Virus record (IMG/VR): IMGVR_UViG_3300031992_000020
DNA from: a virus
Lineage: Duplodnaviria > Heunggongvirae > Uroviricota > Caudoviricetes
Length of the DNA stretch: 64,000 bases
Reading direction: 5' to 3' (one strand)
Position 1 is the stretch's first letter, and each line of letters opens with the position of its first letter. The translations under genes were made by a program, and so were the position numbers. The notes beneath the pieces were generated by a model that searched no databases, had not been told where the DNA came from, and saw only the letters and a program-made list of their open reading frames with translations. Positions 14,251 to 31,223 of the stretch are shown one piece after another.

Positions 14251-14262
14251 GATTCATTCTCC

Positions 14263-14517
14263 TTAGTCGGTTAATACATCTTCAAGCATTGCCGGAGTTC
14301 TGGGCCCAGTAATAAGCTCATCCTCCAAAACAAGAGAGGTCACGTGACCCAGCAGTCCATAAGTCTGATTGATATAATCCATCGCATACTGGAACTTATC
14401 GCCTTTAACTTCTTTGGTCAGATCCTCGAAAGTGCGGCGAGGCATAATATATTCCAGCTCACGACCCCAAAACTTCTGTTCCTTGCTAACACTCTTGTTT
14501 CTCTTCTGCTTTGCCAT
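14263..14517 (-). CDS. hypothetical protein
   Basis: ORF track; ATGA start/stop overlap with dnaB. Confidence 0.4.
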   Translation of the reverse strand: MAKQKRNKSVSKEQKFWGRELEYIMPRRTFEDLTKEVKGDKFQYAMDYINQTYGLLGHVTSLVLEDELITGPRTPAMLEDVLTD

Positions 14518-16599: not shown

Positions 16600-16601
16600 T
16601 A

Positions 16602-16766
16602 TAATGTCGCCACCAAATCAAAAATATTCTTTATCGTAAGGAGAATCCAATATCCTACGATCCATGGCCAAGCATGTTTTGGCATCTTTTTAATTTGAAA
16701 TACTGAAACAACTGCTGCAATTATAATTAATCCAATAACACACCATTGTGAGGCTGTAAAAAACAT
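16602..16766 (-). CDS. small membrane protein (54 aa, two predicted TM helices)
   Basis: RBS TAAGGAGA then ATG; stop overlaps next start (TAATGG); below the 60-aa ORF-track cutoff. Confidence 0.35.
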
Positions 16767-16787
16767 TCTTTTTCTCCTTATGTAATT

Positions 16788-16816
16788 ATTATATCATAAA
16801 AAAGGATAAAAGTCAA
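16788..16816 (-). promoter_or_regulatory. sigma70-type promoter TTGACT-17-TATAAT
   Basis: reverse complement reads TTGACTTTTATCCTTTTTTATGATATAAT. Confidence 0.6.
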
Positions 16817-16840
16817 GCGAGCCATTTTGAGGCTCGCTTG
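16812..16840 (-). terminator. rho-independent terminator hairpin (caagcgagcc/ggctcgcttg) with T tract
   Basis: 10-bp inverted repeat right after the stop of the 16844..17830 gene; overlaps promoter -35. Confidence 0.6.
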
Positions 16841-16843
16841 ATC

Positions 16844-17830
16844 TTACTTGTTCAGAACTCGCAGTTCCTGAATAATCAACCAAACTTTTTCTGCATCAGC
16901 CTCAGTCGTTTCTTTGAACTGCTTACCAACCCCAAGATATTCAGTAATGATCTTGGAAATCTTCAATCTATTGCTTGGATCCTTTGCCATTAATTCTCCA
17001 AACAATACCTCAGCTTCTGCTTTCATTTCAGAGAATTTAGGCATTTCCAATTCATGTTCTTTGTATTCATTCTGCCGATCATTAGTTACATACTTATTAC
17101 CATGTTCGGCAGCTTCTTTATCAATAGCTTCTCCAATTGCATTAACAAGATTGTCATATGAGAAGACAATACTGTCTGGAATATACTTGAAACGTGAGCC
17201 CGCGACAAATCTAGGGGTGCCACGCAAGAATAATCTCGTTTCAGGCAATCCAGTTTCTTTACTTGTTACTTCATGAGAGAAACCAATAATATCACAAGTT
17301 CTTTCACAAATCTTACGACCACGTTTATCCAACGTAGGTTCAAGTTTACTATACTCTTCACCCTGTTCGTTCTTTTCAGTGCGCTCAGTGCTATGAGAAA
17401 TCAAAATAAGACCGTAATCCATCTGAATAATCTTACGTAGACAAGTATCAAATTCCTTTTCAACAAGACTATAACCTTTACCAAAAGGAAGATCACCGAT
17501 ATTATCTACACCATTATCATTACAGATATAATCTACGCAATAGTCATAAGCAATATCCGCAGTATCAATAACTACTGTCTGGAACATTTGCTTAGTTTCT
17601 TCTTCTTTCAATTCAACCAATAGTCTACGGAATTCATTCCAACTATTGATCGGCTGAGCCATAACTCCGGGGATGGCGCTGTAACCTTTCTCAAAAGCAA
17701 AGATTACAGCCCCAGGGAACTTCGCTGCGGTAGTCGTTTTGCCTGTCTTTGGTGTGCCATAGAAAAGCACGCTATACCCACGAAGGTCACGACTTACAAC
17801 ATGCGGTTTAAGACTAGTTAAAACGCCCAT
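16844..17830 (-). CDS. RecA-like/AAA ATPase (possible Sak4-type recombination mediator)
   Basis: Walker A GTPKTGKTT. Confidence 0.45.
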   Translation of the reverse strand: MGVLTSLKPHVVSRDLRGYSVLFYGTPKTGKTTTAAKFPGAVIFAFEKGYSAIPGVMAQPINSWNEFRRLLVELKEEETKQMFQTVVIDTADIAYDYCVDYICNDNGVDNIGDLPFGKGYSLVEKEFDTCLRKIIQMDYGLILISHSTERTEKNEQGEEYSKLEPTLDKRGRKICERTCDIIGFSHEVTSKETGLPETRLFLRGTPRFVAGSRFKYIPDSIVFSYDNLVNAIGEAIDKEAAEHGNKYVTNDRQNEYKEHELEMPKFSEMKAEAEVLFGELMAKDPSNRLKISKIITEYLGVGKQFKETTEADAEKVWLIIQELRVLNK

Positions 17831-17847
17831 TTATCGTGTCCTCCTTA

Positions 17848-18792
17848 TTAGAAATTGTAAGTATCATCTGCATTTGCGGGAACAGCCGCCGCAGAACTTC
17901 CACCCTTAGATGCTTCGTAATCAATACGACGCTGCTTCAAATCTGCCAAATGAAGCTCACGATCAGCCATCATCTTACTGAGTTCTGCCTTAGTAAGAGT
18001 GCTTTCATCATCAAAATCGTAAGGCTGCTTAGAGCAACCAGTAATAACAAACTCACGAGTCGTATTCTGACGCTCACGAACCTCATCTTCACCAAATGCA
18101 GATTCAGTTACAGTCTTGGTTACAACTGTCTTACTAAGCTGACGTCCCCAAACACAAGTGAATACAGGATTCTTAGCACTTGCGTCAAGATTCTGGAAAT
18201 ACTTCATACCACCGGCTCCGCGTACAACAAACTCAACCGGCATGAGTTCCTTACGATAATCCTGGAAGATCGCTCCCTTAACCTTAACGTGAGCATCAAT
18301 CTTTTTCTCAGGATCAGCTTCTACATCTTTCACATTCGTGATCAACATATCAGTCTTAAAAGTATTACGCTGCTTTTCATCCTCATTAAGAGAATTTACG
18401 ATATGAATAAATCCACCTTCATTACGAATAACGCTGGTAGGCTTTTCATCATTTACGGTGGGGAACCACTCATTCAGCTCAATCGCAGAATCACAACGAA
18501 GCTTCAAAGCCTTATCCGCGCCTACATTCAAAACAGTAGGATTCTCATCAATGATCTTCTTCAAGATCGGGAAACGACTATTCGCACTACCGCTCTTGGC
18601 GAATGTCGCAGTTTCATATGTATAATGGAGTCGTACCACATTTTCCATCTTGTCATCAGTTGCCAGCATAATCTCGCCGCTGATAAACTCAGTGCCAGGA
18701 GCCTTGGAATTTGCACCAGTCACTTTCTTTTCCAACTTATGGTCGTAAAGAATACCCTCAACATGCGATTCATTAATAAATTTCTTTTTCAT
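17848..18792 (-). CDS. hypothetical protein (possible ssDNA-binding or annealing protein)
   Basis: ORF track; position inside the replication module. Confidence 0.35.
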   Translation of the reverse strand: MKKKFINESHVEGILYDHKLEKKVTGANSKAPGTEFISGEIMLATDDKMENVVRLHYTYETATFAKSGSANSRFPILKKIIDENPTVLNVGADKALKLRCDSAIELNEWFPTVNDEKPTSVIRNEGGFIHIVNSLNEDEKQRNTFKTDMLITNVKDVEADPEKKIDAHVKVKGAIFQDYRKELMPVEFVVRGAGGMKYFQNLDASAKNPVFTCVWGRQLSKTVVTKTVTESAFGEDEVRERQNTTREFVITGCSKQPYDFDDESTLTKAELSKMMADRELHLADLKQRRIDYEASKGGSSAAAVPANADDTYNF

Positions 18793-18806
18793 TACTTGTT
18801 TTCTCC

Positions 18807-19141
18807 TTAAATTTCTACATTTTTTCCTTTTTCGGTAATCATATAAACTACTGGGTCTTTACCAACCTTTTCAACATAGCCATCTGTTACCAATTTACGC
18901 ATTGCGCCAGAAACACCTTTTGAAGTAATTCCCATATTATCCGCAATATCCCGAGCCTTATACATAGCTGTCGGTGCAGATTGTAGATACTTCAAAATTT
19001 TTCCGCCATTTTCTGTGAAAAGAGGTTTTTCAATACCATCTGTGTTCCTCAATGCGTCTACATACATTTTTACATTTTGCGGAACATCCTGATTTAGCGT
19101 CAGTTTGTCCCAATACTCAAGAAATTCCTGTTGTTTTGTCA
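18807..19141 (-). CDS. hypothetical protein
   Basis: RBS AGGAAAGGA upstream of MTKQQ start. Confidence 0.45.
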
Positions 19142-19174
19142 TGTGGTATGATCCTTTCCTCATTTTCTACATAT

Positions 19175-19203
19175 ATTATATCAAAATTTTTGGGAAATGT
19201 CAA
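19175..19203 (-). promoter_or_regulatory. perfect consensus sigma70 promoter TTGACA-17-TATAAT
   Basis: reverse complement reads TTGACATTTCCCAAAAATTTTGATATAAT. Confidence 0.65.
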
Positions 19204-19484
19204 TTCAATCCCTCATAGATAGCAGCAGGTAGTAAATCATAGAGCAACTGAGCGTACTTTTCATCTTCGGTTTCTAAATAAATCTCACGAATAGTATTTA
19301 GAGTATTTAGCCAATCATCAACCAGATCTTGAAGATATTCTGGCTGGTTGTATGGTTCATCATCATATACAACAGGATTGAATTCATATGGTTCTAATTC
19401 AAAAGGCTCTGCAAAAATCTGCATATTATGCTTATGAATTGATTCCATTGCCTGCTTTATTTCTTTTGCAGATGTAACACTCAT
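19200..19484 (-). CDS. hypothetical acidic protein
   Basis: ORF track. Confidence 0.4.
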   Translation of the reverse strand: MSVTSAKEIKQAMESIHKHNMQIFAEPFELEPYEFNPVVYDDEPYNQPEYLQDLVDDWLNTLNTIREIYLETEDEKYAQLLYDLLPAAIYEGLN

Positions 19485-20239
19485 TCTGTTACCTCATCAA
19501 TGAAAATCAATTCTTGCGCATAAGGCAATGTTCTCGCCCAAGAAATAAAGTTAGGCTTAGAAGCATCATCCTGTCCAGACCACTCATTTAGCTTATGGAA
19601 TCTGCGCTGACTCTTGGAGCATATAGAAAGTAGATTTTCATAATTCATCGTGACAGTACGCTTTTGTAGCCAGGCTTCGGGTAGCAGACGAACAAGCTCT
19701 TTCCAATATGCCTTTTGCCGCGCTGGATCTTCTGTTTTCAGAACCTGCTGCCGCAAATCTTCAAGCCATGTAATAAGTTTATCCCATCTCTCATCTATAT
19801 GCCAATGATCAACGAATCCACATGCTTTTCCAGCTTCAGTAACGTTAGATTGATCCGCCTTATCAACGGGTAGATCTGGATCCCAATCATCAATTTCAAA
19901 ACAATCAAGAGTGATAGGCTGTGATGTTAGCTTATGCATTGTACTTGTGCTATTAGCAACAGTACCAACTTTATATGTGTCAAACTCTTTCCACCAATAT
20001 AGTGGAGCAGTGATATCAACAGATACTATAATCTGGCGCATAAATTTACGATGTTCTGGCCCACTTTTGATAAGAGTCTGCATAAGTTTCATATCTCTTG
20101 GGCCGATATCCCAATAGCACTGCTTAGTTTCTGGATCGAATCCAGTTATACTGTCGCTTAAATGCCAACTATTTTTAGGGTTGCGCATGCCGCGGATTGC
20201 ATGCTCAAAGCCCCATACAGAAGTATATTCAAATTTCAT
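19481..20239 (-). CDS. ThyX-like FAD-dependent thymidylate synthase (tentative)
   Basis: HRKFMRQ..S motif resembles the ThyX RHR..S signature; lies in a nucleotide-metabolism context. Confidence 0.4.
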   Translation of the reverse strand: MKFEYTSVWGFEHAIRGMRNPKNSWHLSDSITGFDPETKQCYWDIGPRDMKLMQTLIKSGPEHRKFMRQIIVSVDITAPLYWWKEFDTYKVGTVANSTSTMHKLTSQPITLDCFEIDDWDPDLPVDKADQSNVTEAGKACGFVDHWHIDERWDKLITWLEDLRQQVLKTEDPARQKAYWKELVRLLPEAWLQKRTVTMNYENLLSICSKSQRRFHKLNEWSGQDDASKPNFISWARTLPYAQELIFIDEVTE

Positions 20240-20517
20240 TATATATGAATTGTTTCAGCGCCAATACTATTACTAGTAGCAATATTTGAAGAACTTGCAT
20301 CAATATCAATATGATCCGCGCTATTGCAAGTCAACGTTGCATTTGTGCCACAATAGGTAATTGACCATGGGCTCCAACTGCTTGGAGTAGTATAAGTATA
20401 AGTTTTATTATTTGCGCGATAGCCTTCCCAATAGGCTTCATCAAGAAGCTCCTTTAACTCTTTTGTAGTTAAAGTAATCTGATCCTTCTTGTCAGTTGTA
20501 AATACTTTAATCATCAT
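20239..20517 (-). CDS. hypothetical protein
   Basis: ORF track. Confidence 0.35.
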   Translation of the reverse strand: MMIKVFTTDKKDQITLTTKELKELLDEAYWEGYRANNKTYTYTTPSSWSPWSITYCGTNATLTCNSADHIDIDASSSNIATSNSIGAETIHI

Positions 20518-20531
20518 AAGAATTTACCTCA

Positions 20532-21515
20532 TTATTTAATACTGTAGCCATATTCTTTGGCTTTGTAAAAGTCTTGCCAATAATCTTCTCTCTCATTTAG
20601 CTTAGATTGATCACATTCCTCTATAACTTCGAATGTAAATTTTTCTAAACCTTCTTGATACATTGCAGGATATAATTTATTTTGTGTGCGAGGCTCCGCG
20701 TTTAACGCCCTCTTAATATGTTGCCGCCAGCGATCTGCAATATCAACTGCTTGTCCAACATAACACATTTGTGTTTCGATGTTTGTGATGCGGTAAATAC
20801 CAGTATGTCGTCCGTTGCCTATGACTCGACCCACGAGATCGGTATATGGCTTTTCATAGTAGACTTTCCAGATAACTTTTGCAATAGCTTCTCCGGCTTC
20901 TTGCGATATGCTTGGCACAATCTCTTCAAGTCTTCGTATGTCATTAAGTGTGTGTGGCCCCATTTGTAGAGAATGGAACTTAATGAAATTTTCTTCTTCT
21001 GCATGACGTTTTGCAACCTCAACTGCTGCGCTTGCGGCAGATTTTAATTCACTTAATTTTTTATCAAGTTCTTTCGCGGCATCCATTTTACGACGATTAG
21101 TGTCTTTAAATTGTTCCGCAAAATCTTCTTGCATTTGAATATATTCTTCTTGCCTTTTGTCGATCCAAACTTGACGTTCTGTCAGATATTTCTTTTTAAA
21201 TTCTTCTTCAGTTAATTCATATGACTATTTTAATTTTTCAACATTTTCAACTTGAGTGGCAATATCATCATTTAGTTCTTTCTTGCGTGTTGCCAATTCA
21301 TCAATTTTGAATCTATGCTCTACAATCTGGTTAGTTAATTCATTATCTTGTACAGTTAATTGTTCTAATTTTTCTTTATACTAATTAACTTCATACTAAG
21401 CTGTATTTATACTTGCTTGTAATCCATTATACTATTGAATATTTTTTTTGACTAAATAACCTGATATGATAGTAGCAATAATGCCAATGACAAGAAGAGC
21501 AATAATGATCCACAT
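20532..21515 (-). CDS. TM helix, coiled-coil and GIY-YIG nuclease domain protein; contains 4 in-frame TAG codons (predicted sense)
   Basis: RBS GGAGGACAAT then ATG at 21515; single open frame continues into track ORF 20532..21134 through TAGs at about 21432, 21396, 21381 and 21225; GIY-YIG motif YVGQ..R..H. Confidence 0.55.
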
Positions 21516-21535
21516 ATTGTCCTCCAGTCTAAAAT

Positions 21536-21566
21536 AGGGGATTGATAAAGCCTACCAATCCCCCAT
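21536..21566 (-). terminator. rho-independent terminator (GGGGATTG/CAATCCCC stem then T tract)
   Basis: lies downstream of the 21585..21860 gene. Confidence 0.5.
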
Positions 21567-21584
21567 TTATTATTTACTTTTTAA

Positions 21585-21860
21585 TTACTCAGCTTCTTCG
21601 GCATTTACGTCGATAGCACGGCCAGCATCGGTGAGCTTGAGGAACTTAACCTTCTTGTGGGTGCCATCATCCAGCTCGATCTCAGCTTCCTCACGGACAC
21701 CAAGGCTCTTGCGCTGAATCGCAGAAGTGAAGATACCATCAACACTACGCTTCTCAAGTCCCAGAGCATCAGCCACATCAGCGGCAGTCACGTTGTCAGA
21801 AGCACTCAAACCCTGCAGATAAGTAATAACCTTCTTAGTATTTTCTTTCATAGCAGCCAT
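21585..21860 (-). CDS. hypothetical small DNA-binding-like protein
   Basis: ORF track; RBS GGAGAAAAAAG. Confidence 0.4.
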   Translation of the reverse strand: MAAMKENTKKVITYLQGLSASDNVTAADVADALGLEKRSVDGIFTSAIQRKSLGVREEAEIELDDGTHKKVKFLKLTDAGRAIDVNAEEAE

Positions 21861-21961
21861 AATCTTTTTTCTCCTTTTGCGCTTAAAGCGTCTTTAAATA
21901 ATGTATTGTATATTTATAATAATCTGAAGGATTTGCCTATCAGTTATTATCTATACAGATT

Positions 21962-21972
21962 ATACCATAATT
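21962..21972 (-). promoter_or_regulatory. extended -10 promoter TATGGTATAAT
   Basis: TRTGnTATAAT match on the minus strand upstream of the 21585..21860 gene. Confidence 0.4.
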
Positions 21973-21983
21973 TTTTTTCAAGA

Positions 21984-22184
21984 TCAAATATTTTTTTCTT
22001 TTAAATAATCTTGAACAAGTGTGTCAAGGGCAATCATGTCTTGAAGTTCTAGGTCTGCGGCTTCTTGTGCCTGCATCATACGATCTTTCGCTGTGTTAAC
22101 TTCATCACGATCTTGACTGGTCTGGATGGTATATTCCAGATCCGCGATTTTCTTAGCTAATTGTTTTAGCTGTTTCTTAGTCAC
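21984..22184 (-). CDS. hypothetical coiled-coil protein (GTG start)
   Basis: ORF track. Confidence 0.35.
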   Translation of the reverse strand: MTKKQLKQLAKKIADLEYTIQTSQDRDEVNTAKDRMMQAQEAADLELQDMIALDTLVQDYLKEKNI

Positions 22185-22219
22185 GGTAAGATTTTTTCCT
22201 TTCTTTATCTTACATACAT

Positions 22220-22248
22220 ATTATATTAAAAATTTTTATAAAAATCAA
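22220..22248 (-). promoter_or_regulatory. sigma70-type promoter TTGATT-17-TATAAT
   Basis: reverse complement reads TTGATTTTTATAAAAATTTTTAATATAAT. Confidence 0.6.
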
Positions 22249-22260
22249 CTAGTTTACGCA

Positions 22261-23439
22261 TCAACCGAATATAGAAGCTAATGTACACTCTGATGGGTTT
22301 TTATCATCACGAACGCGTTTAAAATGAAAATGTCTGAGTGTATGTGCTGTTCTATCTTTCTCCATTCCCGCAAGTTCACATACCTTGCCAACATATGATT
22401 TAAGATTGGCTTTATCGTCATCAGTTAATCCAGATGAAACTGTTCCAATAGAAATGAGTTTTCCTTCTGAATCATATGCGCCGATGCGAATTGCCGTATC
22501 CCAACCATAATACCATGCTTTTGTTACTGGTTTAGTTTCATATCCAGGTCCGCGCACTCGCTCAATCTGTCCAACAGGACATTTCTCATATAGTTTTGTA
22601 AAAGGACCAGAAGGCTCTTCTTCTGTATGAAAAATTGCCCAATATGGCCATTGATCAACATCTGGACCAATACCATTTTTACCAAGATCTAATTTTCCAT
22701 CATAAAGCATTGTCGCAGGTTCTGTACCAATAATTACAGCATCACAAGTATCTGTCTTTTTAATTTTGATGGTATCCCACGCTGGTCGCTTGCCAGGTGT
22801 ATATGGAGCAGTCCTCTTTTTAAGTACCATTCCCTCTTCACCTGCGGCAAGTGCAGCAGCCACAGCCTCTTGAATATTATCATCAACTCTTTCAGCAAGT
22901 TCTACAAGAGGAGCGCCTTCTTCCCAAACAGCATGAAATGAATATTTATAATAAACCAATTTCAAAAGATCATAACGTACATCTGCTCTTACTTTTGTTA
23001 AATCATGTCCATTGTAATAAATCATATCATGAACATAATAATGTAGATGCCCATATTCCCCATTTTGTCTTTCAATAGCTAATTCTGGAAGAGCACCCAT
23101 AATTGGTGTTACATCTTTACTTCTTTTACCAGGATAATAAATTTCACCAATAATAACAGTACCATTCGGCACTCCTTCAAGAGCTATAATAATTTCAGGT
23201 ACATTTGCAGATTTTTCAGTTAAAGTGCCTGTGAGCTTAGACACATTTCGGCTCCAAAGATACATATTGCCATCCATATCTTTTTCAAATTGATACCAAT
23301 ATCCATCTTTTTTCAACTGCGCGAAATACTCACCAGAAGCACAAATAGAGGGAAAGAGTGATTCTTTTCCCTCTGGGATTTTATTTATTTTCATTGGTTC
23401 TATACAAAGTGGTGTAGCCATATTATACCCTCGTCGCAC
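22261..23439 (-). CDS. ATP-dependent DNA ligase
   Basis: KxDG adenylation motif (LKKDGYW). Confidence 0.75.
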   Translation of the reverse strand: MRRGYNMATPLCIEPMKINKIPEGKESLFPSICASGEYFAQLKKDGYWYQFEKDMDGNMYLWSRNVSKLTGTLTEKSANVPEIIIALEGVPNGTVIIGEIYYPGKRSKDVTPIMGALPELAIERQNGEYGHLHYYVHDMIYYNGHDLTKVRADVRYDLLKLVYYKYSFHAVWEEGAPLVELAERVDDNIQEAVAAALAAGEEGMVLKKRTAPYTPGKRPAWDTIKIKKTDTCDAVIIGTEPATMLYDGKLDLGKNGIGPDVDQWPYWAIFHTEEEPSGPFTKLYEKCPVGQIERVRGPGYETKPVTKAWYYGWDTAIRIGAYDSEGKLISIGTVSSGLTDDDKANLKSYVGKVCELAGMEKDRTAHTLRHFHFKRVRDDKNPSECTLASIFG

Positions 23440-25864
23440 TTATTAAATTATTGTCTTTAATTAACTTAATCGTTGAACTTGTCCTGGATCCAAGAGTAAT
23501 GTCATCTGTACTTACACATATAGATCCAGTGCTGCCGCTAAGTAACAAGCTTCCAGAGCCTTCACCGAGGTATACTCCCGTGCAGATCTTGCCTGAATGA
23601 GTAATTTTAAGACCTTTGCCAGCTCTGTTCTGTTTAGTGAATTCATTGACCATAATTCTCTTCCCTGTTCCGTCGCTACAACCAATGAAAATCTGCCCGT
23701 TGGCATTGTTGATATTATTCGTCCCTGTCGATCCGAGATTGAATCCCACGGCTGCTTCATCGTCACTCGCAAGTTTGATTCCTTGAACGCCGACAGAAGT
23801 TCTTCCAGTAGCTCCAACTGTTGCTCCATCAAAACGAATACCCATGCCTTCCTTTGTTAATATAACAATATCACTATTGTCTCCAACCCAAACACTTATA
23901 ATTGCATCGCCTTCGCGCAAATTGAGCGCTTGAACACCGGCTTTACGTTTCGTTCCAATATATTCAGACAGGTTTGTCTTTTTAACTAAACCGCGTTTAG
24001 TGATAAACCAGACGAACTTTCCAGCATTTTCTGTTCTTGCAACTGAGGCGACTGCGGCCACTTGTTCCGTAGGTTCCATCTCCACTAACGTAGAAATCGC
24101 TACTCCACGTGTAGTTTGTGTTCCTTCTGGAATTGTATCTACACCAACTCTGTAAACTTTACCTTTGTTTGTAAAGGCTAACAATACATCCACTGTATTA
24201 GTTTCAATAGTAGCTAATGTGATATCATCTTGAGTTTTTACTCCTTTTCCGTTACGCTTTTGTACCTTAAAATTCTTTTTTGGCACACGCTTCACATTAC
24301 CGGCCTCTGTAACGACTACGACAACATCTTCCGGCACGATCTGAGCAATTTCTTTTTCTTCTTTTGTAACTTCAATGTGAGTAACTTTTGTTCTTCGCTC
24401 ATCAGCGAATTTATTAGCGAAAGCCTGCAATTCAGAGATTAGATCATTTTTGAAGATAGTTTCATCATTTAAACGTTTTACAATTAATGCTCTTTCTTCA
24501 TCTTTGTCTTTTCTCTCTTGTTCAATAGCCAACTTTTCCATATTGGCTAATCTGCTTAAAGTCATTCCAAGAATTGCATCTGCCTGTTCAATAGTGAAAT
24601 TGTATCTTTTCATTAACGCAGTATGCGCGGCAATCTTATCCTTGGATCCTTTAATTAATTTAATTACATTATCAATATCATCAAGAGCAGTACATAATCC
24701 ATCTAAAATATGGAGTCTTTGCTCTAATTTTCTTAATTCAAAATTATTTCTGCGGCGATATACTTCTTCTTGATGCAAAGCATAATACTTAATAATATCA
24801 ACTAAGGTAAGCTGTTTCGGCACTTTGTTTACCAGAGCAACCATGTTAACACTGAATGACGTTTCCAAATCAGTTAATTCATATAGCCTATTGGCTATTA
24901 CATCTGCGTTAACACCTTTTTCCAGTTCCACAATGAACCGTATTCCTTCTTTATTTGACGCGTCAAGTATCTCTCTAATTCCATCCAACTTTTTGGATTC
25001 ACAGAGCTCGTCAATTGATCCAGCCAACTCTTCCTTAGAGACTTTATAGGGTATTGAAGTAAATACCAATCTATCACGTTTATCGGCAGTTTGTTCGACG
25101 ATATATTCTCCGCGTAAGCGTACACGTCCCTTGCCAGTCTTATAGATGCCTGCGAGTTCCTTCTGGTTGATAATACAACCACCCGTTGGGAAGTCCGGCG
25201 CCTGAATGATATCTGCAAGCGCCGCATTGTCCGTCGCAGTTCCCCTAATGTATGCGGTGATTGCATCCATGACTGATCTAAGATTATGAGGGGCAAAATT
25301 GCATGCCATTGCGACAGCAATCCCAGTTGTTCCATTGCACAAGAGATTTGGGAATAATCCTGGAAGATATACTGGCTCATTTGAAGTTTCGTCGAAGTTT
25401 GGGATCCAATCAACTGTGTCTTTTTTGATTCCATCAAGTGTAGCCTCACTTATTTTGCTCAATCTACATTCAGTATATCTCATTGCGGCAGGCGGGTCTC
25501 CATCTCGGCTACCATTGTTACCATGGAATTCAATAAGCGGATATCGCATATTCCATGGCTGACTTGCGCCGACTAATGCGCCATATATCGAACTATCACC
25601 ATGCGGATGGTACTTGCCCATTGTGTCACCAACAGGCCGCGCGCACTTTACATAATTTTTATCGCTTTTATAGCCACTTTCAGCCATACACCAAAGGATT
25701 CGCCGCATAACAGGCTTTAATCCATCTTCTACTGCGGGAATTGCTCGATCTGTGATTACTGAAAGTGAATAATCAAGAAAGGATTGTTCAACCTCTTGGA
25801 CTATTGGGGCTTGAATAATATTATCCACAGTTACACGCCTTTCTAATCCTTTTGATTGTTTCAT
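23423..25864 (-). CDS. type II DNA topoisomerase, GyrA/ParC-like subunit
   Basis: YHPHGD active-site region; 813 aa. Confidence 0.85.
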   Translation of the reverse strand: MKQSKGLERRVTVDNIIQAPIVQEVEQSFLDYSLSVITDRAIPAVEDGLKPVMRRILWCMAESGYKSDKNYVKCARPVGDTMGKYHPHGDSSIYGALVGASQPWNMRYPLIEFHGNNGSRDGDPPAAMRYTECRLSKISEATLDGIKKDTVDWIPNFDETSNEPVYLPGLFPNLLCNGTTGIAVAMACNFAPHNLRSVMDAITAYIRGTATDNAALADIIQAPDFPTGGCIINQKELAGIYKTGKGRVRLRGEYIVEQTADKRDRLVFTSIPYKVSKEELAGSIDELCESKKLDGIREILDASNKEGIRFIVELEKGVNADVIANRLYELTDLETSFSVNMVALVNKVPKQLTLVDIIKYYALHQEEVYRRRNNFELRKLEQRLHILDGLCTALDDIDNVIKLIKGSKDKIAAHTALMKRYNFTIEQADAILGMTLSRLANMEKLAIEQERKDKDEERALIVKRLNDETIFKNDLISELQAFANKFADERRTKVTHIEVTKEEKEIAQIVPEDVVVVVTEAGNVKRVPKKNFKVQKRNGKGVKTQDDITLATIETNTVDVLLAFTNKGKVYRVGVDTIPEGTQTTRGVAISTLVEMEPTEQVAAVASVARTENAGKFVWFITKRGLVKKTNLSEYIGTKRKAGVQALNLREGDAIISVWVGDNSDIVILTKEGMGIRFDGATVGATGRTSVGVQGIKLASDDEAAVGFNLGSTGTNNINNANGQIFIGCSDGTGKRIMVNEFTKQNRAGKGLKITHSGKICTGVYLGEGSGSLLLSGSTGSICVSTDDITLGSRTSSTIKLIKDNNLISATRV

Positions 25865-26396
25865 CTACTGGATATTTCTTCATAGAATAATCCAAAAGGA
25901 TTTCACTTAATTCTATATTTATTTTATCATTTATTTCATCAATTTTCAACTCGTGATCATTTTTATCTATAATAATTGCTCCTGTTGCTAATTTATCAGC
26001 AATTTCATTATATGTATGACCACTATGACCCTTAACTTTTTCAATAGATACATAAGGATTTTTGAAAAATGGAATCAATAGCTCCCAAAGCTCTTTATTA
26101 GCCACAGGCTCTTTCTTACTATTGATCCATCCATTATTTTCCCAATTAATATACCATTTATCATTATAGCAGTTTACCAAATATGCGCTATCACTATAAA
26201 TAACACAAACTGCGGAAGGTTCATATTCACTCCAAAATTTGAGCGCTTCATATGCTGCTCTGAGTTCCATTCGTTGATTGGTTGCATTTGGCTCTGTGCC
26301 TTGCAGCCGCATAATTTCTTCACCATAATGTATGCCAATAACGCCCCAACCACTACGACTTTTCGTTGCAGAGCCATCTGTGTAAAACTCAATCAT
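25821..26396 (-). CDS. rnh: ribonuclease H
   Basis: RNase HI-like acidic catalytic residues (DGS..G...E..E..A). Confidence 0.75.
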   Translation of the reverse strand: MIEFYTDGSATKSRSGWGVIGIHYGEEIMRLQGTEPNATNQRMELRAAYEALKFWSEYEPSAVCVIYSDSAYLVNCYNDKWYINWENNGWINSKKEPVANKELWELLIPFFKNPYVSIEKVKGHSGHTYNEIADKLATGAIIIDKNDHELKIDEINDKINIELSEILLDYSMKKYPVDETIKRIRKACNCG

Positions 26397-28324
26397 ACGT
26401 CAATATTCGCTCTAAAAGCGTTCTCCTCAATAAATTTTTTACGCATAGTTGCTGATTCGCCCATTAATGCGTTAAATGTATTACTTGCAGCAACCACATC
26501 TTCCATTGTAATTCGTTTTAATGTTCTAGACGCTGGCGCCATCGTTGACTCTGCTAACTCATCAACTGACTGCTCGCCCAAACCTTTAAAACGACGAAGT
26601 TCATAATTACTGCCAGGATTGTTTTTACGGTATTCAGCAAGAGCAGCATCATCTTTAATATAGAATGAGTTTTTACCCTTGATAATTCTATATAGCGGAG
26701 GCACTGCCGCATAAATATATCCTTTTTCAATCAACTCTGGGCAAAATTTCCATATAAATGTTAAGAACAAACAACGAATATGTTCACCATCAACATCAGC
26801 ATCGCTCATGATGATGATTTTGCCATAACGAAGTTTAGATTCATCCAAAATAACCTTATTGTTTTGAATTTGCAATCCAAAACCAACAATCATAGATTTA
26901 ATTTCTTCGTTGGCCATTGCCTTTGATAAATCCGCTTTAAGGACATTAAGAATCTTACCTCTGATAGGAAGGATCGCCTGGGTATCTCGATTGCGAGCTT
27001 CTTTTGCCGAGCCAGCTGCTGAATCTCCTTCGACGATAAAGACTTCGCAATCACTACGTTTCCTATTTGAACAATCCGCCAATTTCCCAGGTAATGTAAT
27101 GCGATTAGCCTTTCCTGCGACACTCCGAACAGTTTCCTTAGCTTTACGGGCTTTGTCACGAGCTGTTCTTGCGAGGACAGCTTTTCCAATAATTGCTTTT
27201 GCATCTTTCTCATGTGCATTAAGCCAGTCAGCGATGGATTGTGAGCAAAGTCGCTGAACAACAGTTCTTCCTTCTGCACTTGTTAAAACTCCTTTTGTCT
27301 GTCCACTAAATACTGGATCGGGCATCGTTAAACTTAAAACAAGAATTAATCCTTCTTTTAAATCTTCACCTGTGAAGTTTTCATCTTTTTCTTTCAATAA
27401 ACCTTTTGCTCTTGCATATACATTAATCGCTTGTGTAAAAGCTGTGCGGAAGCCAGTTAAGTGAGTGCCTCCTGTGTTCGGTATACTATTTGTAAAGATA
27501 CGATATGTATCACTAAATTGATCGGTATATTGGAGGGCTACCCGTACTCTCATTCTATTTTCAATATTCTCTGCATAGAATGGAATAGTTAATTTATTCT
27601 TTCCTTTTGTTAATGAATCAAGATAATCAAGAAGTCCATTCTCGCTGAAAATCTCTTCTGTCTCTTGGCCATTGGAAAGAGTAAAATGCAATCCCGGAGA
27701 CAAATATGCTAATTCCCAAAGTTGTTTGCGGATTCGGTTATAATCTGCATTTAAATCAACGTCTTTAAATATCGTTTCATCAGGAATAAATTGCACAATT
27801 GTTCCATGTTCAATTTTATCAGTTGCATATTTTTTAGGGTCTCGCGCACGAACTTCAAACTTTACAAGTTCGCCTTTTGCAAATAAAGCATATGCACGCT
27901 TATTATCTCTAAAACTTTCAACTGAAAAAAGACTTGACAATGCATTGGTCGCTTTTGCGCCAACACCATTCATACCACCAGAAGTATTATACCCACTATT
28001 GCCATCGCTATCGAACTTAGCGCCAGTATGCAACTTAGTATAAATATTAACCAGGACTTCTTCGCCCTCATCATTCTTACCAAAGGGGACTCCTCGGCCA
28101 TTGTCAGCCACGATAACCCGAGGCCCATCAAGACTAACAGATATCCGATCACAAGCACCAACCAAGTACTCGTCAACTGCATTAGAAATAATTTCTAGCG
28201 TAATCTGCCACACACCTTCGGCATCGACAGCGCCAATATACATTCCAGGGCGAGTACGGATGGCTTCCATACCTTCAAGTGTTTTTATGTCTTTAACGCC
28301 ATAATCTAATTCTGGAATAGCCAT
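26393..28324 (-). CDS. type II DNA topoisomerase, GyrB/ParE-like ATPase subunit
   Basis: GHKL ATPase and TOPRIM motif EGDSAGG. Confidence 0.85.
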   Translation of the reverse strand: MAIPELDYGVKDIKTLEGMEAIRTRPGMYIGAVDAEGVWQITLEIISNAVDEYLVGACDRISVSLDGPRVIVADNGRGVPFGKNDEGEEVLVNIYTKLHTGAKFDSDGNSGYNTSGGMNGVGAKATNALSSLFSVESFRDNKRAYALFAKGELVKFEVRARDPKKYATDKIEHGTIVQFIPDETIFKDVDLNADYNRIRKQLWELAYLSPGLHFTLSNGQETEEIFSENGLLDYLDSLTKGKNKLTIPFYAENIENRMRVRVALQYTDQFSDTYRIFTNSIPNTGGTHLTGFRTAFTQAINVYARAKGLLKEKDENFTGEDLKEGLILVLSLTMPDPVFSGQTKGVLTSAEGRTVVQRLCSQSIADWLNAHEKDAKAIIGKAVLARTARDKARKAKETVRSVAGKANRITLPGKLADCSNRKRSDCEVFIVEGDSAAGSAKEARNRDTQAILPIRGKILNVLKADLSKAMANEEIKSMIVGFGLQIQNNKVILDESKLRYGKIIIMSDADVDGEHIRCLFLTFIWKFCPELIEKGYIYAAVPPLYRIIKGKNSFYIKDDAALAEYRKNNPGSNYELRRFKGLGEQSVDELAESTMAPASRTLKRITMEDVVAASNTFNALMGESATMRKKFIEENAFRANIDV

Positions 28325-28356: not shown

Positions 28357-28384
28357 ATTATAACATATTTTTTTTATTTTGCAA
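28357..28384 (-). promoter_or_regulatory. sigma70-type promoter TTGCAA-16-TATAAT
   Basis: reverse complement reads TTGCAAAATAAAAAAAATATGTTATAAT. Confidence 0.5.
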
Positions 28385-28412
28385 AGTTCTTGTTAACAAC
28401 AGCAAAAGGAAA

Positions 28413-28432
28413 GGGAGAGTTTTAACTCTCCC
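28413..28432 (-). terminator. terminator hairpin GGGAGAGTTTTAACTCTCCC
   Basis: palindrome followed by a T-rich tract downstream of the phoH2 stop. Confidence 0.55.
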
Positions 28433-29693
28433 CATGGATTTTCGCTGCAAGTTGAGCTACCTCGCTACGTTCAGATTTTTGAAGTTCAATAGATCCGAAC
28501 AGAGGATCACCTTTTAAGCTATGCAATAGTGAAGCAATACCACTGTTCTTTCGGAAAATATCAGAGTCTGTTTGTGATTCATCACCCAAAAACCAAACCT
28601 CACTATCCTTTTCTGCGCGAGATATAATTAATTTAACATTATCAGTTGTAAGATTCTCGGCTTCATCTACAAATATAATGCTATGTTGAAAATTACGTCC
28701 GCGCAAATACCCTAAATGTATCGGCTCAATTTCATCATTCTCTATTGCTTGGATAAGAGCTTCTGGACCTCCCAAGTGATCCGCCAGCGGCATTAACCAA
28801 GGCATTAGTTTATCATCTTGCTCACCCGGCAACGCGCCAAGTCTCTATGACCCGGCAACTTCAACGTTATTTCTTACATATACGATTTTATCAAAAGTGT
28901 GCCATTTGACATAATTCATTGCATGAACTAAAGCTAAAAATGTTTTACCAGAACCAAATTGTCCTCTTACTACTTTGACAGGAATCTTTCTGTTTTGTAG
29001 TAAGTCAAATAACATTTTCTATTGATCATTTAATGGTTTTACTTGACCAAAATAATCACTGTTTTGATTCTTGTATTTAATTACTTCATTTTTACTTCCA
29101 TCCCATTTAACTAAATCAACAATTTCGTCGTTTAACTTTAAAGCCGCATATTCATTAATCTCTAAGCCAATAGTATTGGTCTCAGGATGCTCATAATAAT
29201 TGGCTAATGCCTGTTCATCGGATCCAAAGTCAATTTCTTTGTATCCTTTCCAAAGTCCTTCTCTGTGCGCTGTATCTTTATAATAAATAGGATTTATAAC
29301 ATCTATAAATTTGCACGCAAGAAAATATTGAGAAGAATCCGATGTAATAAATTCAACCCTTTCCTTAATCTTGCGTGCAGTAATCACAGCTTCACAAATT
29401 AATATACTATCATTATTATCTTGCAAGTCTGGAGAATGTGTTAATAATTTGTTAATAACTCTCCAATTACTTTTTGGCTCTTGCCATAGATCCTAATGAT
29501 CCATTAAATAGCGAATTAAAACGCGTGCTTTATATTTGATTGCTTCATCCTTTTGAAAGGATGTTTTGATATTTTCTAATTCTGAAAAAACAATTGTACT
29601 AATATAATTTACATCTTCGGTATTTAACTTATAACCAGCTAATAAAGCACTTGTATCAAAGAACTTAACTGTTTGCTTCAATGCTTTCATCAC
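28422..29693 (-). CDS. PhoH2-like protein (N-terminal PIN domain plus PhoH ATPase) in one reading frame with 3 in-frame TAG codons
   Basis: track ORFs 29493..29693, 29019..29426 and 28422..28832, plus a start-less PhoH N-terminus with Walker A GQFGSGKT, are all in one frame joined by TAG at 29493-95, 29019-21 and 28845-47. Confidence 0.6.
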
Positions 29694-30294
29694 CCTTACT
29701 ATTTGTTACACCTATGATTTCATCAACGAATCCATATTCCAGCATATCGTTGGCATCAAAGAACCATTGCTTGCGCTCATGCTCTTTGTATTCTTCTTCG
29801 GTCACTTTAGTATGGGATGTAATAAACTCACGTACTTTATTATCGACTCTTTTGTTAAAATACATTGCATCTTCAACAGAAAGAGATTCTCCGCTAAATG
29901 CAGTGCTTCCAGCATGAAGCAAGGCATATGAATATGGATAACATTTACGAGTAACATTTGGATTGTGCGCACCTGCCGCAAGGATAATTGTGCCCATGCT
30001 AGCCGCATAACCAAGAACAATAACGTTTAATGGTTTCGTATATTGATCTATAATATTACACAAAATGAATCCATCACTGATTGATCCTCCTATTGTTGCC
30101 AATATTAATGTAACAGGATCATTGCTGCTATCCTTCTCAAAATCCATCAAAGGAATAACAACACGCTCGATTATATTTTCATCCACCTCTTGATTAAAGA
30201 TGATGGTGCGATTTTCAAGCAATTGTGTAAAATATTGATAAGAGGCAGGATCAATAGACTATACATTCAATAGTGCAGTTAAATCTTCTAACAT
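29665..30294 (-). CDS. clpP: ClpP-family serine protease with one in-frame TAG (30259-30261)
   Basis: strong RBS AAGGAGG then ATG at 30294; frame continues through TAG into the ClpP core. Confidence 0.65.
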
Positions 30295-31076: not shown

Positions 31077-31223
31077 AATAAATCTCCTTTTGCTTCACTA
31101 TATGTATATTATAAAATAATTTTTCACATAAGTCAACCCATTTGCTCGAAAAAATTGCTGGGGCGATCGCGGGGCCAGAAATGATCGTGAACGCTGGTCA
31201 CTTAAAAATAGGTACAACAAAAA

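What the first reader, a model, noticed from the sequence alone, without database searches (positions are those of the whole stretch)
28422..29693. Canonical PIN plus PhoH (PhoH2) fusion architecture restored only by reading through three TAG codons
The PIN domain (FFDTSALLAGY), a linker, the PhoH Walker A (GQFGSGKT) and the PhoH C-terminus are in one frame. The frame is interrupted only by TAG at 29493, 29019 and 28845. The TAG at 28845 falls in the conserved VEAGEKLGFLPG region of PhoH. This is strong internal evidence that TAG is translated rather than marking pseudogenes.
Basis: partly seen in the sequence, partly recalled or inferred. Interest (0 to 1): 0.6.

Follow-up and report, generated by a model that had tools for sequence, protein, structure and literature searches.

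The report
Intact phage PhoH2 gene, TAG-as-glutamine code
The three TAG "stops" inside this phage RNA helicase-nuclease gene are almost certainly read as glutamine by a suppressor tRNA the phage carries itself, a real example of a stop-codon recoding already known in gut phages.

Summary
The minus-strand frame 28422-29690 has exactly three in-frame stops, all TAG (codons 66, 224, 282). Read through, it gives one 422-aa PIN+PhoH (PhoH2-type) protein.

- Homology is unbroken across every TAG.
- dN/dS is 0.03-0.16 in all four inter-TAG segments against the four closest relatives (up to 0.31 against the most distant, L002), so this is not a pseudogene.
- Relatives 82-89% identical carry 2-7 TAGs at partly different positions, and these swap mainly with CAA/CAG.
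- Codon 224 is Gln in all six standard-code homologues compared.
- The window encodes a tRNA with anticodon CUA (58180-58269).
- All 42 curated genes end in TAA or TGA.

TAG is unevenly spread. The replication genes between 3.2 and 28.3 kb have none in 6640 codons. PhoH2, ClpP, a RuvC-like resolvase and several nucleases do carry TAGs. This matches the published "standard-code early genes, recoded later genes" picture.

This is a new member of a known kind (genetic code 15 phages). A recoded "PhoH family ribonuclease" has already been reported in Phassvirus genomes.

One side observation may be new. The suppressor tRNA belongs to a widespread phage family with a Gln-like acceptor end and a conserved long extra arm.

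The parts
28422..29690 (-). PhoH2-type gene (PIN + PhoH). It has 422 codons plus a TAA stop and three in-frame TAG codons. Its start overlaps the end of the upstream ClpP-like gene by 26 nt.
   Evidence: dN/dS is 0.03-0.16 in all four segments against the four closest relatives (0.05-0.31 against L002).
29493..29495 (-). TAG codon 66, in the PIN domain (MDH-x-DLW). The column is variable. Relatives have TAG, CAA or AGA here.
29019..29021 (-). TAG codon 224 (LNDQ-x-KMLFDLLQ), at the start of the PhoH domain. This position is Gln in all standard-code homologues compared.
   Evidence: Gln in 6 of 6, including Clostridium, Enterococcus, Bacillus, Geobacillus and Fusobacterium phages; relatives have TAG or CAG.
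28845..28847 (-). TAG codon 282 (VEVAGS-x-RLGALPG). All six related loci examined have CAA or CAG here.
29301..29669 (-). PIN-like endoribonuclease domain (about aa 8-130), with acidic residues D12, E37, D94 and D118.
28455..29042 (-). PhoH P-loop ATPase domain (aa 217-412). Walker A GQFGSGKT lies at 28941-28964. Walker B VDEAEN lies at 28653-28670.
29665..30294 (-). ClpP-like protease gene immediately upstream. It has one in-frame TAG at 30259-30261 (codon 12).
   Evidence: Every relative also has one TAG in this gene.
28412..28433 (-). Terminator-like hairpin (9 bp, followed by a T-rich tail) that overlaps the PhoH2 stop codon. It would mark the end of the putative hyp144-ClpP-PhoH2 transcription unit.
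   Evidence: consensus scan only
31108..31136 (-). Sigma-70-like promoter match (TTGACT-17-TATAAT, 11 of 12), upstream of the first gene of the unit and after a 13-bp terminator-like hairpin at 31221-31250.
   Evidence: consensus scan only
28357..28384 (-). Promoter-like site with an extended -10 (TTGCAA-16-TG-TATAAT) between PhoH2 and the TAG-free gyrB-like topoisomerase II gene.
   Evidence: consensus scan only
58180..58269 (-). Amber suppressor tRNA with anticodon CUA. It has an A1:C72 mismatch, G73, and an extra arm of about 23 nt (TATATCCCTCTGAAGGAGGTAGT).
   Evidence: ARAGORN. Rfam tRNA 55.4 bits. Family covariation.
3191..28324 (-). Span that holds the TAG-free replication and nucleotide-metabolism genes: NrdD, guanylate kinase, DNA polymerase, Dda-like helicase, RecJ, primase, DnaB, Sak4, ligase, topoisomerase II subunits (GyrA/GyrB-like) and RNase H. 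Together they have 0 TAG in 6640 codons. The span also contains a TAG-bearing GIY-YIG gene (20532-21566).
   Evidence: The gyrA-like, gyrB-like, ligase and RNase H genes are also TAG-free in every relative.

Best explanation
The window comes from a large (probably about 170-190 kb) uncultured tailed phage that uses genetic code 15, in which TAG is read as glutamine.

The frame 28422-29690 is an intact, selected gene for a PhoH2-type protein. It has an N-terminal PIN endoribonuclease domain fused to a PhoH P-loop ATPase (RNA-helicase-like) domain. Its three TAG codons are decoded by the phage's own tRNA with anticodon CUA (58180-58269). That tRNA has a glutaminyl-tRNA-like acceptor end (unpaired 1:72, G73), so host GlnRS most likely charges it.

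Shown here:
- gene integrity and domain architecture;
- TAG exchanging with Gln codons in relatives;
- the presence and conservation of the suppressor tRNA;
- the restriction of TAG to a subset of genes.

Inferred:
- The replication genes are TAG-free, while ClpP, PhoH2, the RuvC-like resolvase and several nucleases carry TAGs. Full-length PhoH2 can therefore only be made once the suppressor tRNA has accumulated in the infected standard-code host. Translation of this operon would thus be delayed to the middle or late phase even if it is transcribed from a host-type promoter.
- By analogy with characterised PhoH2 proteins, the protein unwinds and cleaves RNA during infection.
For: Gene integrity:
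- Three TAGs are the only in-frame stops.
- PhoH (1.1e-37) and phrog_2765 (3.5e-76) each match as one stretch across the TAGs.
- Full-length homologues reach 88% identity.
- dN/dS is 0.03-0.16 in each of the four inter-TAG segments against four relatives, and 0.05-0.31 against a fifth.

TAG means Gln:
- Five sequenced relatives at 82-89% identity carry 2-7 TAGs at partly different positions. A 69%-identical relative carries none.
- Of the 10 PhoH columns that hold TAG in any relative, 7 otherwise hold mainly CAA or CAG.
- Over 13 gene families, Gln is an alternative in 11 of 16 informative TAG columns. The next most frequent is Lys, in 3.
- Codon 224 is Gln in 6 of 6 standard-code homologues, including five cultured phages.
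- An HNH gene has TAG in one copy of an internal repeat (WLC-x-CDCGN), while the other copy reads WLCQCDCGN.

Decoding machinery:
- The tRNA with anticodon CUA scores 55.4 bits on the Rfam tRNA model.
- 21 family members show compensatory changes in every acceptor and T-arm pair and in 3 of 4 D-arm pairs.
- All 21 have G73, and none has a G-C pair at 1:72.

Genome-level pattern:
- All 42 curated genes stop at TAA or TGA.
- There are 0 TAGs in 6640 replication-gene codons, against 23 TAGs in 8254 other codons. The Fisher test of TAG against CAA+CAG gives p = 8.6e-6.
- The same split between TAG-free and TAG-bearing genes is seen in relatives.

Precedent:
- The TAG-to-Gln code in gut phages has been proposed and confirmed by mass spectrometry (bioRxiv 10.1101/2021.08.26.457843; PMC9523058).
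- A recoded "PhoH family ribonuclease" and a recoded Clp protease are listed for Phassvirus genomes (PMC10607447, Table 2).
Against: - There is no direct protein evidence for this phage.
- The suppressor tRNA has a long, class-II-like extra arm that is not a feature of known tRNA-Gln. Its 3:70 pair is C-G rather than G-C. Charging by GlnRS is therefore inferred, not shown.
- Three of the ten PhoH TAG columns alternate with non-Gln codons: AGA, TGG/GTT/GAG, and AAG/AAA/CCC. These columns are variable, so they do not contradict Gln, but they do not support it either.
- TAG is one transition away from CAG, so some TAG/CAG alternation would be expected whatever TAG encodes.
- The database proteins P0001-P0003 were themselves called with code 15. 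Their Q residues at TAG sites are therefore circular evidence. Only DNA-level and standard-code comparisons were used for the Gln assignment.
- The temporal-gating step rests on gene content and consensus promoter and terminator matches only. The structural and lysis module, where published models expect the most TAGs, lies outside the window.
- No release factor or aminoacyl-tRNA synthetase gene was found in the window.
Confidence: 0.88

Rival explanations
1. TAG is translated through the phage tRNA with anticodon CUA, but as an amino acid other than Gln. The long extra arm would fit a class-II tRNA, so Ser, Leu or Tyr are candidates. In bacteria SerRS recognises a long variable arm together with G73 and ignores the anticodon.
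For: - The tRNA has an extra arm of about 23 nt with a 4-bp helix. It is conserved in 21 of 21 aligned family members, and all have G73.
- The window's ordinary tRNA-Gln(UUG) has a normal short variable loop.
Against: - Codon 224 is an invariant Gln in standard-code homologues.
- Gln codons are the main alternative at TAG columns. Ser appears in only 2 of 16 informative columns, Tyr in 1 and Leu in none.
- The 1:72 pair is never G-C. tRNA-Ser and tRNA-Leu normally have G1-C72, whereas a weak or broken 1:72 pair plus G73 is the GlnRS signature (from established knowledge of E. coli tRNA identity sets).
- The D stem has 4 bp, as in class-I tRNAs.
- Several family members have the full tRNA-Gln-like acceptor end, UGGGG...CCCCA-G.
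Confidence: 0.07
2. The gene is intact and TAG means Gln, but the TAGs have no regulatory role. They are neutral CAG-to-TAG drift, tolerated wherever the suppressor is present. The TAG-free state of the replication genes would reflect stronger constraint or codon-usage differences, not timing.
For: - TAG positions turn over quickly between relatives. PhoH has 0 to 7 TAGs, at different sites.
- TAG-bearing genes also use fewer G-ending codons in general. AAG makes up 0.20 of AAA+AAG in them against 0.35 elsewhere, and TTG makes up 0.18 of TTA+TTG against 0.45. The two gene classes therefore differ in composition.
- Many non-replication genes also lack TAG.
Against: - There are 0 TAGs among 208 Gln-type codons (CAA+CAG+TAG) in the replication genes, against 23 of 313 elsewhere (p = 8.6e-6).
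- The ligase, GyrA-like, RNase H and GyrB-like genes are TAG-free in every relative examined, while ClpP carries one TAG in every relative.
- Published surveys find the same partition in several independent recoded phage clades (bioRxiv 10.1101/2021.08.26.457843).
Confidence: 0.3
3. The frame is a decaying pseudogene of a PhoH2 gene, disabled by three nonsense mutations. The standard-code fragments, if anything, would be the real products.
For: - Under the standard code the frame breaks into ORFs of 66, 135, 56 and 136 aa.
- Public annotation pipelines have deposited such fragments: 84-aa and 147-aa "PhoH-like ATPase" entries in the cluster of a related full-length protein.
Against: - The only stops are TAG. 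There are no frameshifts, TAA or TGA.
- dN/dS is 0.03-0.16 downstream of each TAG.
- Independent assemblies of relatives carry different TAG sets in the same intact frame.
- Other conserved genes in the window also carry TAGs: RuvC-like (5), GIY-YIG (5), ClpP (1) and a tyrosine recombinase (1).
- A suppressor tRNA is encoded in the window.
Confidence: 0.02
4. The tRNA is a pyrrolysine tRNA, as ARAGORN labels it, and TAG encodes pyrrolysine.
For: ARAGORN prints "tRNA-Pyl" for the CUA anticodon.
Against: - The label follows from the anticodon alone.
- tRNA-Pyl has a very short variable loop and a compact D loop (established knowledge). This tRNA has an extra arm of about 23 nt and a canonical GG-containing D loop and T loop.
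- No match suggesting pylS or pylBCD was seen among the window ORFs scanned against PHROGs or Pfam.
- TAG columns alternate with Gln, not Lys.
Confidence: 0.01

Closest known systems
TAG-to-Gln (genetic code 15) recoded gut phages: crAss-like, Lak, Garnet, Amethyst and related clades (Borges et al., bioRxiv 10.1101/2021.08.26.457843; Peters et al., PMC9523058)
   Same: - In-frame TAG in conserved genes, aligned with Gln.
- A phage-encoded tRNA with anticodon CUA.
- Replication genes kept in the standard code while other genes carry TAG.
- Close relatives that differ in how strongly they are recoded.
   Different: - No near-identical DNA was found in the phage collection, so this looks like a different lineage.
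- The nearest protein relatives sit on uncultured contigs of about 130-190 kb.
- No RF2 gene was seen in the window.
- The structural and lysis module is not in the window, so the hallmark enrichment of TAG in late genes could not be checked.
Phassvirus group (phAss-1, ctckW2, ct6IQ4; PMC10607447)
   Same: - Large gut phages with many tRNA genes, including tRNA-SUP-CTA, and TAG read as Gln.
- A "PhoH family ribonuclease" and an "ATP-dependent Clp protease" are among the ORFs whose TAG content differs between sister genomes. That is the pattern found here.
- They are related to Enterococcus phage EF1, which is also a distant PhoH2 hit here.
   Different: - Their genomes are about 133-136 kb.
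- No phage record reaches 60% protein identity to this PhoH2. The best match is 33.8%. It is therefore not the same genus.
PhoH2 proteins (PIN_4 + PhoH; mycobacterial PhoH2, Andrews & Arcus 2015 and 2020, cited via PMC5499597 and PMC7824862), and phage versions such as the Bacillus phage Kirov "PhoH2 superfamily RNA helicase-ribonuclease"
   Same: - Same two-domain order and a similar length (about 410-430 aa).
- The four PIN acidic residues are conserved.
- Walker A (GxxGxGKT) and Walker B (DEAxN) are present.
   Different: - Only about 25-30% identical to cultured-phage PhoH2.
- The Pfam PIN_4 score of this protein is below the gathering threshold.
- The gene needs TAG read-through.
- No biochemical data exist for any phage PhoH2, and its role in infection is described as enigmatic (PMC7824862).
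Classical amber suppressors derived from tRNA-Gln (E. coli supE type)
   Same: CUA anticodon, G73, a weak or unpaired 1:72 pair, and inferred insertion of Gln at UAG.
   Different: It carries a conserved extra arm of about 20-24 nt with a YUGAAG loop, which canonical tRNA-Gln lacks. It is encoded by a phage, inside a 26-gene tRNA array.

Membership tests
PhoH2 (PIN + PhoH fusion) | C-terminal PhoH P-loop ATPase domain with Walker A and Walker B motifs | tested here: met
PhoH2 (PIN + PhoH fusion) | N-terminal PIN (PIN_4 group) domain with conserved acidic catalytic residues | tested here: met
PhoH2 (PIN + PhoH fusion) | Both domains in one polypeptide | tested here: met
   Both domains lie in a single frame, and phrog_2765 matches aa 10-417 as one stretch. 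This holds only if the three TAGs are read through. That is supported by dN/dS and by the tRNA with anticodon CUA.
PhoH2 (PIN + PhoH fusion) | ATP-dependent RNA unwinding coupled to RNA cleavage | not testable with these tools
   Biochemical property, known only for mycobacterial and Thermobispora PhoH2 (cited in PMC7824862).
Genetic code 15 (TAG = Gln) phage | In-frame TAG in conserved genes, with homology continuing on both sides | tested here: met
   PhoH2 has 3, RuvC-like 5, GIY-YIG 5, ClpP 1, HNH genes 1 each, and the tyrosine recombinase 1.
Genetic code 15 (TAG = Gln) phage | TAG positions correspond to Gln in homologues | tested here: met
   Codon 224 is Gln in 6 of 6 standard-code homologues. 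Gln is an alternative in 11 of 16 informative TAG columns at the DNA level.
Genetic code 15 (TAG = Gln) phage | Suppressor tRNA with anticodon CUA | tested here: met
   Window 58180-58269 (-), Rfam tRNA 55.4 bits. The tRNA belongs to a conserved family with covariation.
Genetic code 15 (TAG = Gln) phage | TAG not used as a terminator | tested here: met
   All 42 curated genes end in TAA or TGA. For the 31 TAG-free genes this is an observation, not a consequence of how the genes were called. It applies only to this 64-kb window.
Genetic code 15 (TAG = Gln) phage | Gln detected at TAG positions in the protein | not testable with these tools
   This needs metaproteomics, as in PMC9523058.
Pyrrolysine decoding system | tRNA-Pyl architecture (very short variable loop, small D loop) plus pylS and pylBCD genes | tested here: not met
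   The tRNA has an extra arm of about 23 nt and a canonical D loop. No Pyl genes were seen among the window ORFs scanned. The ARAGORN "Pyl" label reflects the anticodon only.

The most novel reading that the evidence does not exclude
The tRNA that decodes these TAGs may represent an undescribed structural class of phage amber suppressor.

- It has a tRNA-Gln-like acceptor end (1:72 weak or mismatched, G73 invariant).
- It also has a conserved class-II-like extra arm of about 20-24 nt: a 4-bp CCUC/GAGG-type helix capped by a nearly invariant YUGAAG loop.
- The arm is found in 22 of 27 otherwise unrelated IMG/VR contigs of about 10-193 kb that share only this tRNA's anticodon arm.

The arm could be a handle for a dedicated factor. 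Candidates are a modification enzyme, a phage protein, or discrimination against host nucleases or release-factor competition. Such a factor could make the code switch conditional.

I found no description of this arm in the papers I could search, but that search was narrow.
Probability: 0.2. Interest if true: 0.6.

Novelty: new member of a known kind. Interest (0 to 1): 0.3.

Why it matters
- **Annotation.** Standard-code annotation breaks this gene, and several others in the window, into meaningless fragments. Such fragments are already deposited in public databases. Recognising code 15 restores a complete PhoH2, ClpP, RuvC-like resolvase and others.
- **Biology.** This adds a further lineage of large, tRNA-rich, probably gut-associated phages to the recoded set. 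The split between TAG-free and TAG-bearing genes is conserved among the relatives examined, while the exact TAG sites turn over quickly. That is useful material for testing the idea that recoding times translation.
- **A test case.** PhoH2 and ClpP sit next to TAG-free replication genes, apparently behind a host-type promoter. That makes them a convenient case for asking whether TAG gating, rather than transcription, sets their timing.
- **Limits.** None of this overturns current understanding.

Tried and rejected
- **Megablast against phage records.** A search with 6 kb around the gene found nothing, so there is no close sequenced phage.
- **Database protein alignment as evidence for Gln.** Alignment A1 looked like strong support. 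It is partly circular, because the closest database proteins were themselves predicted with TAG read as Q ("translates_to_query: no"; checked). I replaced it with codon-level DNA comparisons and standard-code cultured-phage homologues.
- **CAG depletion in TAG-bearing genes.** CAG makes up 0.13 of CAA+CAG in these genes against 0.42 elsewhere. I considered this as evidence that TAG replaced CAG. I rejected it as specific evidence because AAG and TTG are depleted to a similar degree.
- **Extending the tRNA extra-arm helix.** Pairing beyond 4 bp was not consistent across the family (inspection).
- **Host inference from genome contigs.** The scan gave only 40-43% relatives in MAG bins of mixed taxonomy (Clostridia, Prevotella, Phoenicibacter), which is not informative.
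- **Code-change machinery.** No release factor or aminoacyl-tRNA synthetase was found in the window.
Full report
**1. The observation**

On the minus strand, the frame from ATG 29690 (GTG at 29693) to TAA 28422-28424 contains 422 sense positions. It is interrupted only by three TAG codons, at 29493-29495 (codon 66), 29019-29021 (codon 224) and 28845-28847 (codon 282). There is no TAA, TGA or frameshift. Under the standard code the frame splits into ORFs of 66, 135, 56 and 136 aa.

The continuity is far beyond chance:
- Pfam PhoH matches aa 217-412 as one stretch (1.1e-37), across two TAGs.
- PHROG 2765 ("PhoH-like") matches aa 10-417 as one stretch (3.5e-76), across all three.
- tblastn finds 24 phage records that align to 80% or more of the length in a single piece.

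**2. Is it a live gene or a pseudogene?**

I fetched the DNA of seven related loci: L001-L007, with PhoH proteins 68-89% identical and DNA 74-83% identical over the aligned regions. A Nei-Gojobori calculation on each of the four inter-TAG segments separately gives the following:
- dN/dS is 0.03-0.16 against the four closest relatives.
- dN/dS is 0.05-0.31 against the most distant one, L002.
- dS is about 0.7-1.5 or higher.

The segments downstream of each TAG are constrained as strongly as the first one. That is incompatible with a gene truncated at codon 66.

**3. What does TAG encode?**

One caveat first. The closest database proteins (P0001-P0003) were predicted with TAG read as Q ("translates_to_query: no"; verified). 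The Q residues at TAG columns in alignment A1 are therefore partly circular. I used DNA instead.

In the codon alignment of the PhoH genes:
- The relatives carry 7, 7, 5, 2, 2 and 0 TAGs, at partly different positions.
- Ten columns hold TAG in at least one genome.
- In seven of these columns the other genomes hold mainly CAA or CAG.
- The window's third TAG is CAA or CAG in all six other loci.
- Three of L001's TAGs are CAA or CAG in the window.

Extending the census to 13 gene families shared with these loci gives 19 TAG columns, of which 16 are informative. Gln is an alternative in 11 of the 16. The next most frequent is Lys, in 3.

Independent of any recoded genome, codon 224 aligns with Gln in 6 of 6 homologues translated with the standard code. 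Five of these come from cultured Clostridium, Enterococcus, Bacillus, Geobacillus and Fusobacterium phages.

One more piece of evidence comes from an HNH nuclease gene in the window. It has TAG in one copy of an internal repeat (WLC-x-CDCGN), while the second copy reads WLCQCDCGN.

TAG read as Gln is therefore well supported. It remains an inference from comparative data, not from protein evidence.

**4. The decoding machinery**

The window holds 26 tRNA genes at 50.6-64 kb, all on the minus strand. One of them has anticodon CUA, at 58180-58269 (Rfam tRNA 55.4 bits against a threshold of 29). ARAGORN's "Pyl" label only reflects the anticodon.

Features of this tRNA:
- an A1:C72 mismatch and G73;
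- a normal 4-bp D stem and a normal T arm;
- an extra arm of about 23 nt, which is unusual.

Searching IMG/VR for its 18-nt anticodon arm returned 27 contigs of about 6-193 kb, most otherwise unrelated to the window. Of these, 22 carry the same kind of extra arm. In an alignment of 21 distinct members:
- The cloverleaf is 93% paired.
- 16 of 25 pairs show compensatory changes. None of 500 shuffles reaches any of the five observed measures.
- G73 is invariant.
- Pair 1:72 is never G-C. It is mismatched in 11 members and is U-A, A-U or G·U in the rest.
- Several members have the full tRNA-Gln-type acceptor end, UGGGG...CCCCA-G.

A weak 1:72 pair plus G73 plus U35 is the classical GlnRS identity set. 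That statement rests on established knowledge of E. coli tRNA-Gln and was not tested here.

The extra-arm helix (CCUC/GAGG type) is 94% paired, with one covarying pair. Its loop, YUGAAG, is almost invariant. What the arm does is unexplained.

I saw no release factor or aminoacyl-tRNA synthetase gene in the window.

**5. Genome context**

PHROG and Pfam scans show the following layout:
- Between 3.2 and 28.3 kb lie the replication and nucleotide-metabolism genes: NrdD, guanylate kinase, DNA polymerase, Dda-like helicase, RecJ, primase, DnaB, Sak4, ATP-dependent ligase, the two topoisomerase II subunits (GyrA/GyrB-like) and RNase H.
- A mixed region follows, with ClpP-PhoH2, an SPFH/flotillin-like protein, phosphatases, a tyrosine recombinase and homing endonucleases.
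- The tRNA array comes last.

In 42 curated genes:
- Every terminator is TAA or TGA.
- The replication genes have 0 TAGs in 6640 codons (208 CAA+CAG codons).
- The other genes have 23 TAGs in 8254 codons (290 CAA+CAG codons). The Fisher test gives p = 8.6e-6.

The TAG-bearing genes are:

| Gene | Coordinates | TAGs |
|---|---|---|
| RuvC-like resolvase | 649-1179 | 5 |
| GIY-YIG protein | 20532-21566 | 5 |
| PhoH2 | 28422-29690 | 3 |
| Hypothetical protein | 48701-49357 | 3 |
| SH3-like protein | 43623-44333 | 2 |
| ClpP | 29665-30294 | 1 |
| HNH genes (two) | 41148-41870; 55145-55570 | 1 each |
| Tyrosine recombinase | 46230-47249 | 1 |
| Hypothetical protein | 44659-45339 | 1 |

The split is conserved. 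The ligase, GyrA-like, RNase H and GyrB-like genes are TAG-free in every relative. ClpP has one TAG in every relative. PhoH has 0 to 7.

Consensus scans place these sites:
- a strong sigma-70-like promoter at 31108-31136 (-), after a terminator-like hairpin;
- a terminator-like hairpin at 28412-28433 (-), overlapping the PhoH2 stop;
- an extended -10 promoter-like site at 28357-28384 (-), in front of the gyrB-like gene.

PhoH2 therefore looks like the last gene of a short hyp144-(small ORF)-ClpP-PhoH2 unit, separate from the TAG-free replication unit that follows. These sites are pattern matches only.

**6. Domain architecture and family membership**

- **PIN domain.**
  - It is sub-threshold in this protein alone (PIN_4 19.0 bits against 21.9).
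  - 28 of 35 family members match PIN_4.
  - The four acidic residues D12, E37, D94 and D118 are invariant in all alignments.
  - The window protein itself could not be modelled, because the tool refuses a Q-substituted sequence.

Such fusions are known in bacteria and phages and act as RNA helicase/RNases in mycobacteria (PMC5499597; PMC7824862). Their role in phage infection is unknown.

**7. Mechanism, with shown and inferred steps**

Shown:
- The gene is intact and under selection.
- TAG is interchangeable with Gln codons.
- A conserved tRNA with anticodon CUA is encoded in cis.
- TAG is absent from the replication genes and never needed as a terminator in this window.

Inferred:
- Host GlnRS charges the tRNA.
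- The host uses the standard code.
- Full-length ClpP and PhoH2 appear only after the suppressor tRNA has accumulated. Translation of this unit would then be gated to a later phase than the neighbouring replication genes. This is the model proposed for recoded phages in bioRxiv 10.1101/2021.08.26.457843.
- PhoH2 unwinds and cleaves RNA.

The main open alternative concerns function. The TAGs may be neutral CAG-to-TAG drift in genes where the suppressor is available. TAG sites do turn over quickly, and TAG-bearing genes are generally poorer in G-ending codons.

**8. Comparison with what is known, and novelty**

TAG-to-Gln recoding with phage-encoded suppressor tRNAs is established for crAss-like, Lak and several other gut phage clades. 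It has been verified by mass spectrometry (PMC9523058). The Phassvirus paper (PMC10607447, Table 2) lists a "PhoH family ribonuclease" and an "ATP-dependent Clp protease" among ORFs whose TAG content differs between sister genomes. That is the same pattern as here.

The present phage is not close to any deposited phage. There is no megablast hit, and the best tblastn identity is 33.8%. Its relatives are uncultured contigs of about 130-190 kb.

Verdict: a new member of a known kind.

The one element I could not find described is the long-arm, Gln-type suppressor tRNA family (searches found nothing, but the search was limited). I flag it as the most novel reading still open.

Noticed in passing
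window 58180-58269 (-); loci L008-L034: The amber suppressor tRNA carries a conserved extra arm of about 20-24 nt (CCUC/GAGG-type 4-bp helix, nearly invariant YUGAAG loop) on a tRNA-Gln-like body (1:72 weak or mismatched, G73). The same arm is present in 22 of 27 IMG/VR contigs that share only the anticodon arm. The window's normal tRNA-Gln(UUG) (55071-55144) lacks it. Its function is unknown, and I found no description in the papers searched.
   Followed up: partly
window 59471-59553 (-): The tRNA called His (anticodon GTG) also has a long variable arm (83-86 nt in total) and the lowest Rfam tRNA score in the array (39.1 bits). Its D arm looks like that of a tRNA-Leu. Its identity is doubtful.
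   Followed up: no
window 3191-28324 compared with the rest; L002, L005, L006, L007: The replication and nucleotide-metabolism genes contain no TAG in 6640 codons, and all 42 curated genes stop at TAA or TGA. The ligase, GyrA-like, RNase H and GyrB-like genes are TAG-free in every relative, while ClpP has one TAG in every relative.
   Followed up: yes
window 649-1179 (-) and 20532-21566 (-): The two most heavily recoded genes in the window have 5 TAGs each. One is a RuvC-like Holliday-junction resolvase (176 aa). The other is a 344-aa protein with a C-terminal GIY-YIG nuclease domain, in which all five TAGs lie in the first third of the protein, within the N-terminal part (predicted membrane helix and coiled coil).
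   Followed up: partly
window 41148-41870 (-): An HNH endonuclease has an internal repeat in which one copy reads WLC-TAG-CDCGN and the other reads WLCQCDCGN. This is within-gene evidence that TAG means Gln.
   Followed up: partly
window 50169-50629, 55145-55570, 57509-58153 (all -): Homing-endonuclease genes (two HNH, one GIY-YIG) are interspersed in the tRNA array. The GIY-YIG gene starts 27 nt after the 3' end of the suppressor tRNA.
   Followed up: no
window 41977-43482 (-), 36656-38266 (+), 17836-18810 (+): Three genes have much higher GC3 (0.52-0.59) than the rest of the window (about 0.2-0.35). The first matches DUF2828/DUF7788 and PHROG "RNA-binding protein". Two are on the opposite strand to almost all other genes. 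They may be recent acquisitions.
   Followed up: no
protein cluster of P0011: JGI/IMG entries of 84 and 147 aa, named "hypothetical protein" and "PhoH-like ATPase", cluster with a full-length 430-aa relative. They are most likely fragments produced by standard-code gene calling of TAG-interrupted PhoH2 genes. I did not check them at the DNA level.
   Followed up: partly
window, TAG-bearing genes compared with TAG-free genes: CAG is strongly depleted in TAG-bearing genes: 12 CAG against 78 CAA, compared with 168 against 233 elsewhere. AAG and TTG are depleted too, so this cannot be read as specific CAG-to-TAG replacement.
   Followed up: yes
window 46230-47249 (-): A tyrosine recombinase (XerD/integrase-like, PHROG 1, 2.9e-60) with one in-frame TAG sits in a genome that otherwise looks like a large lytic phage. 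It could mean a temperate lifestyle or a dimer-resolution function.
   Followed up: no
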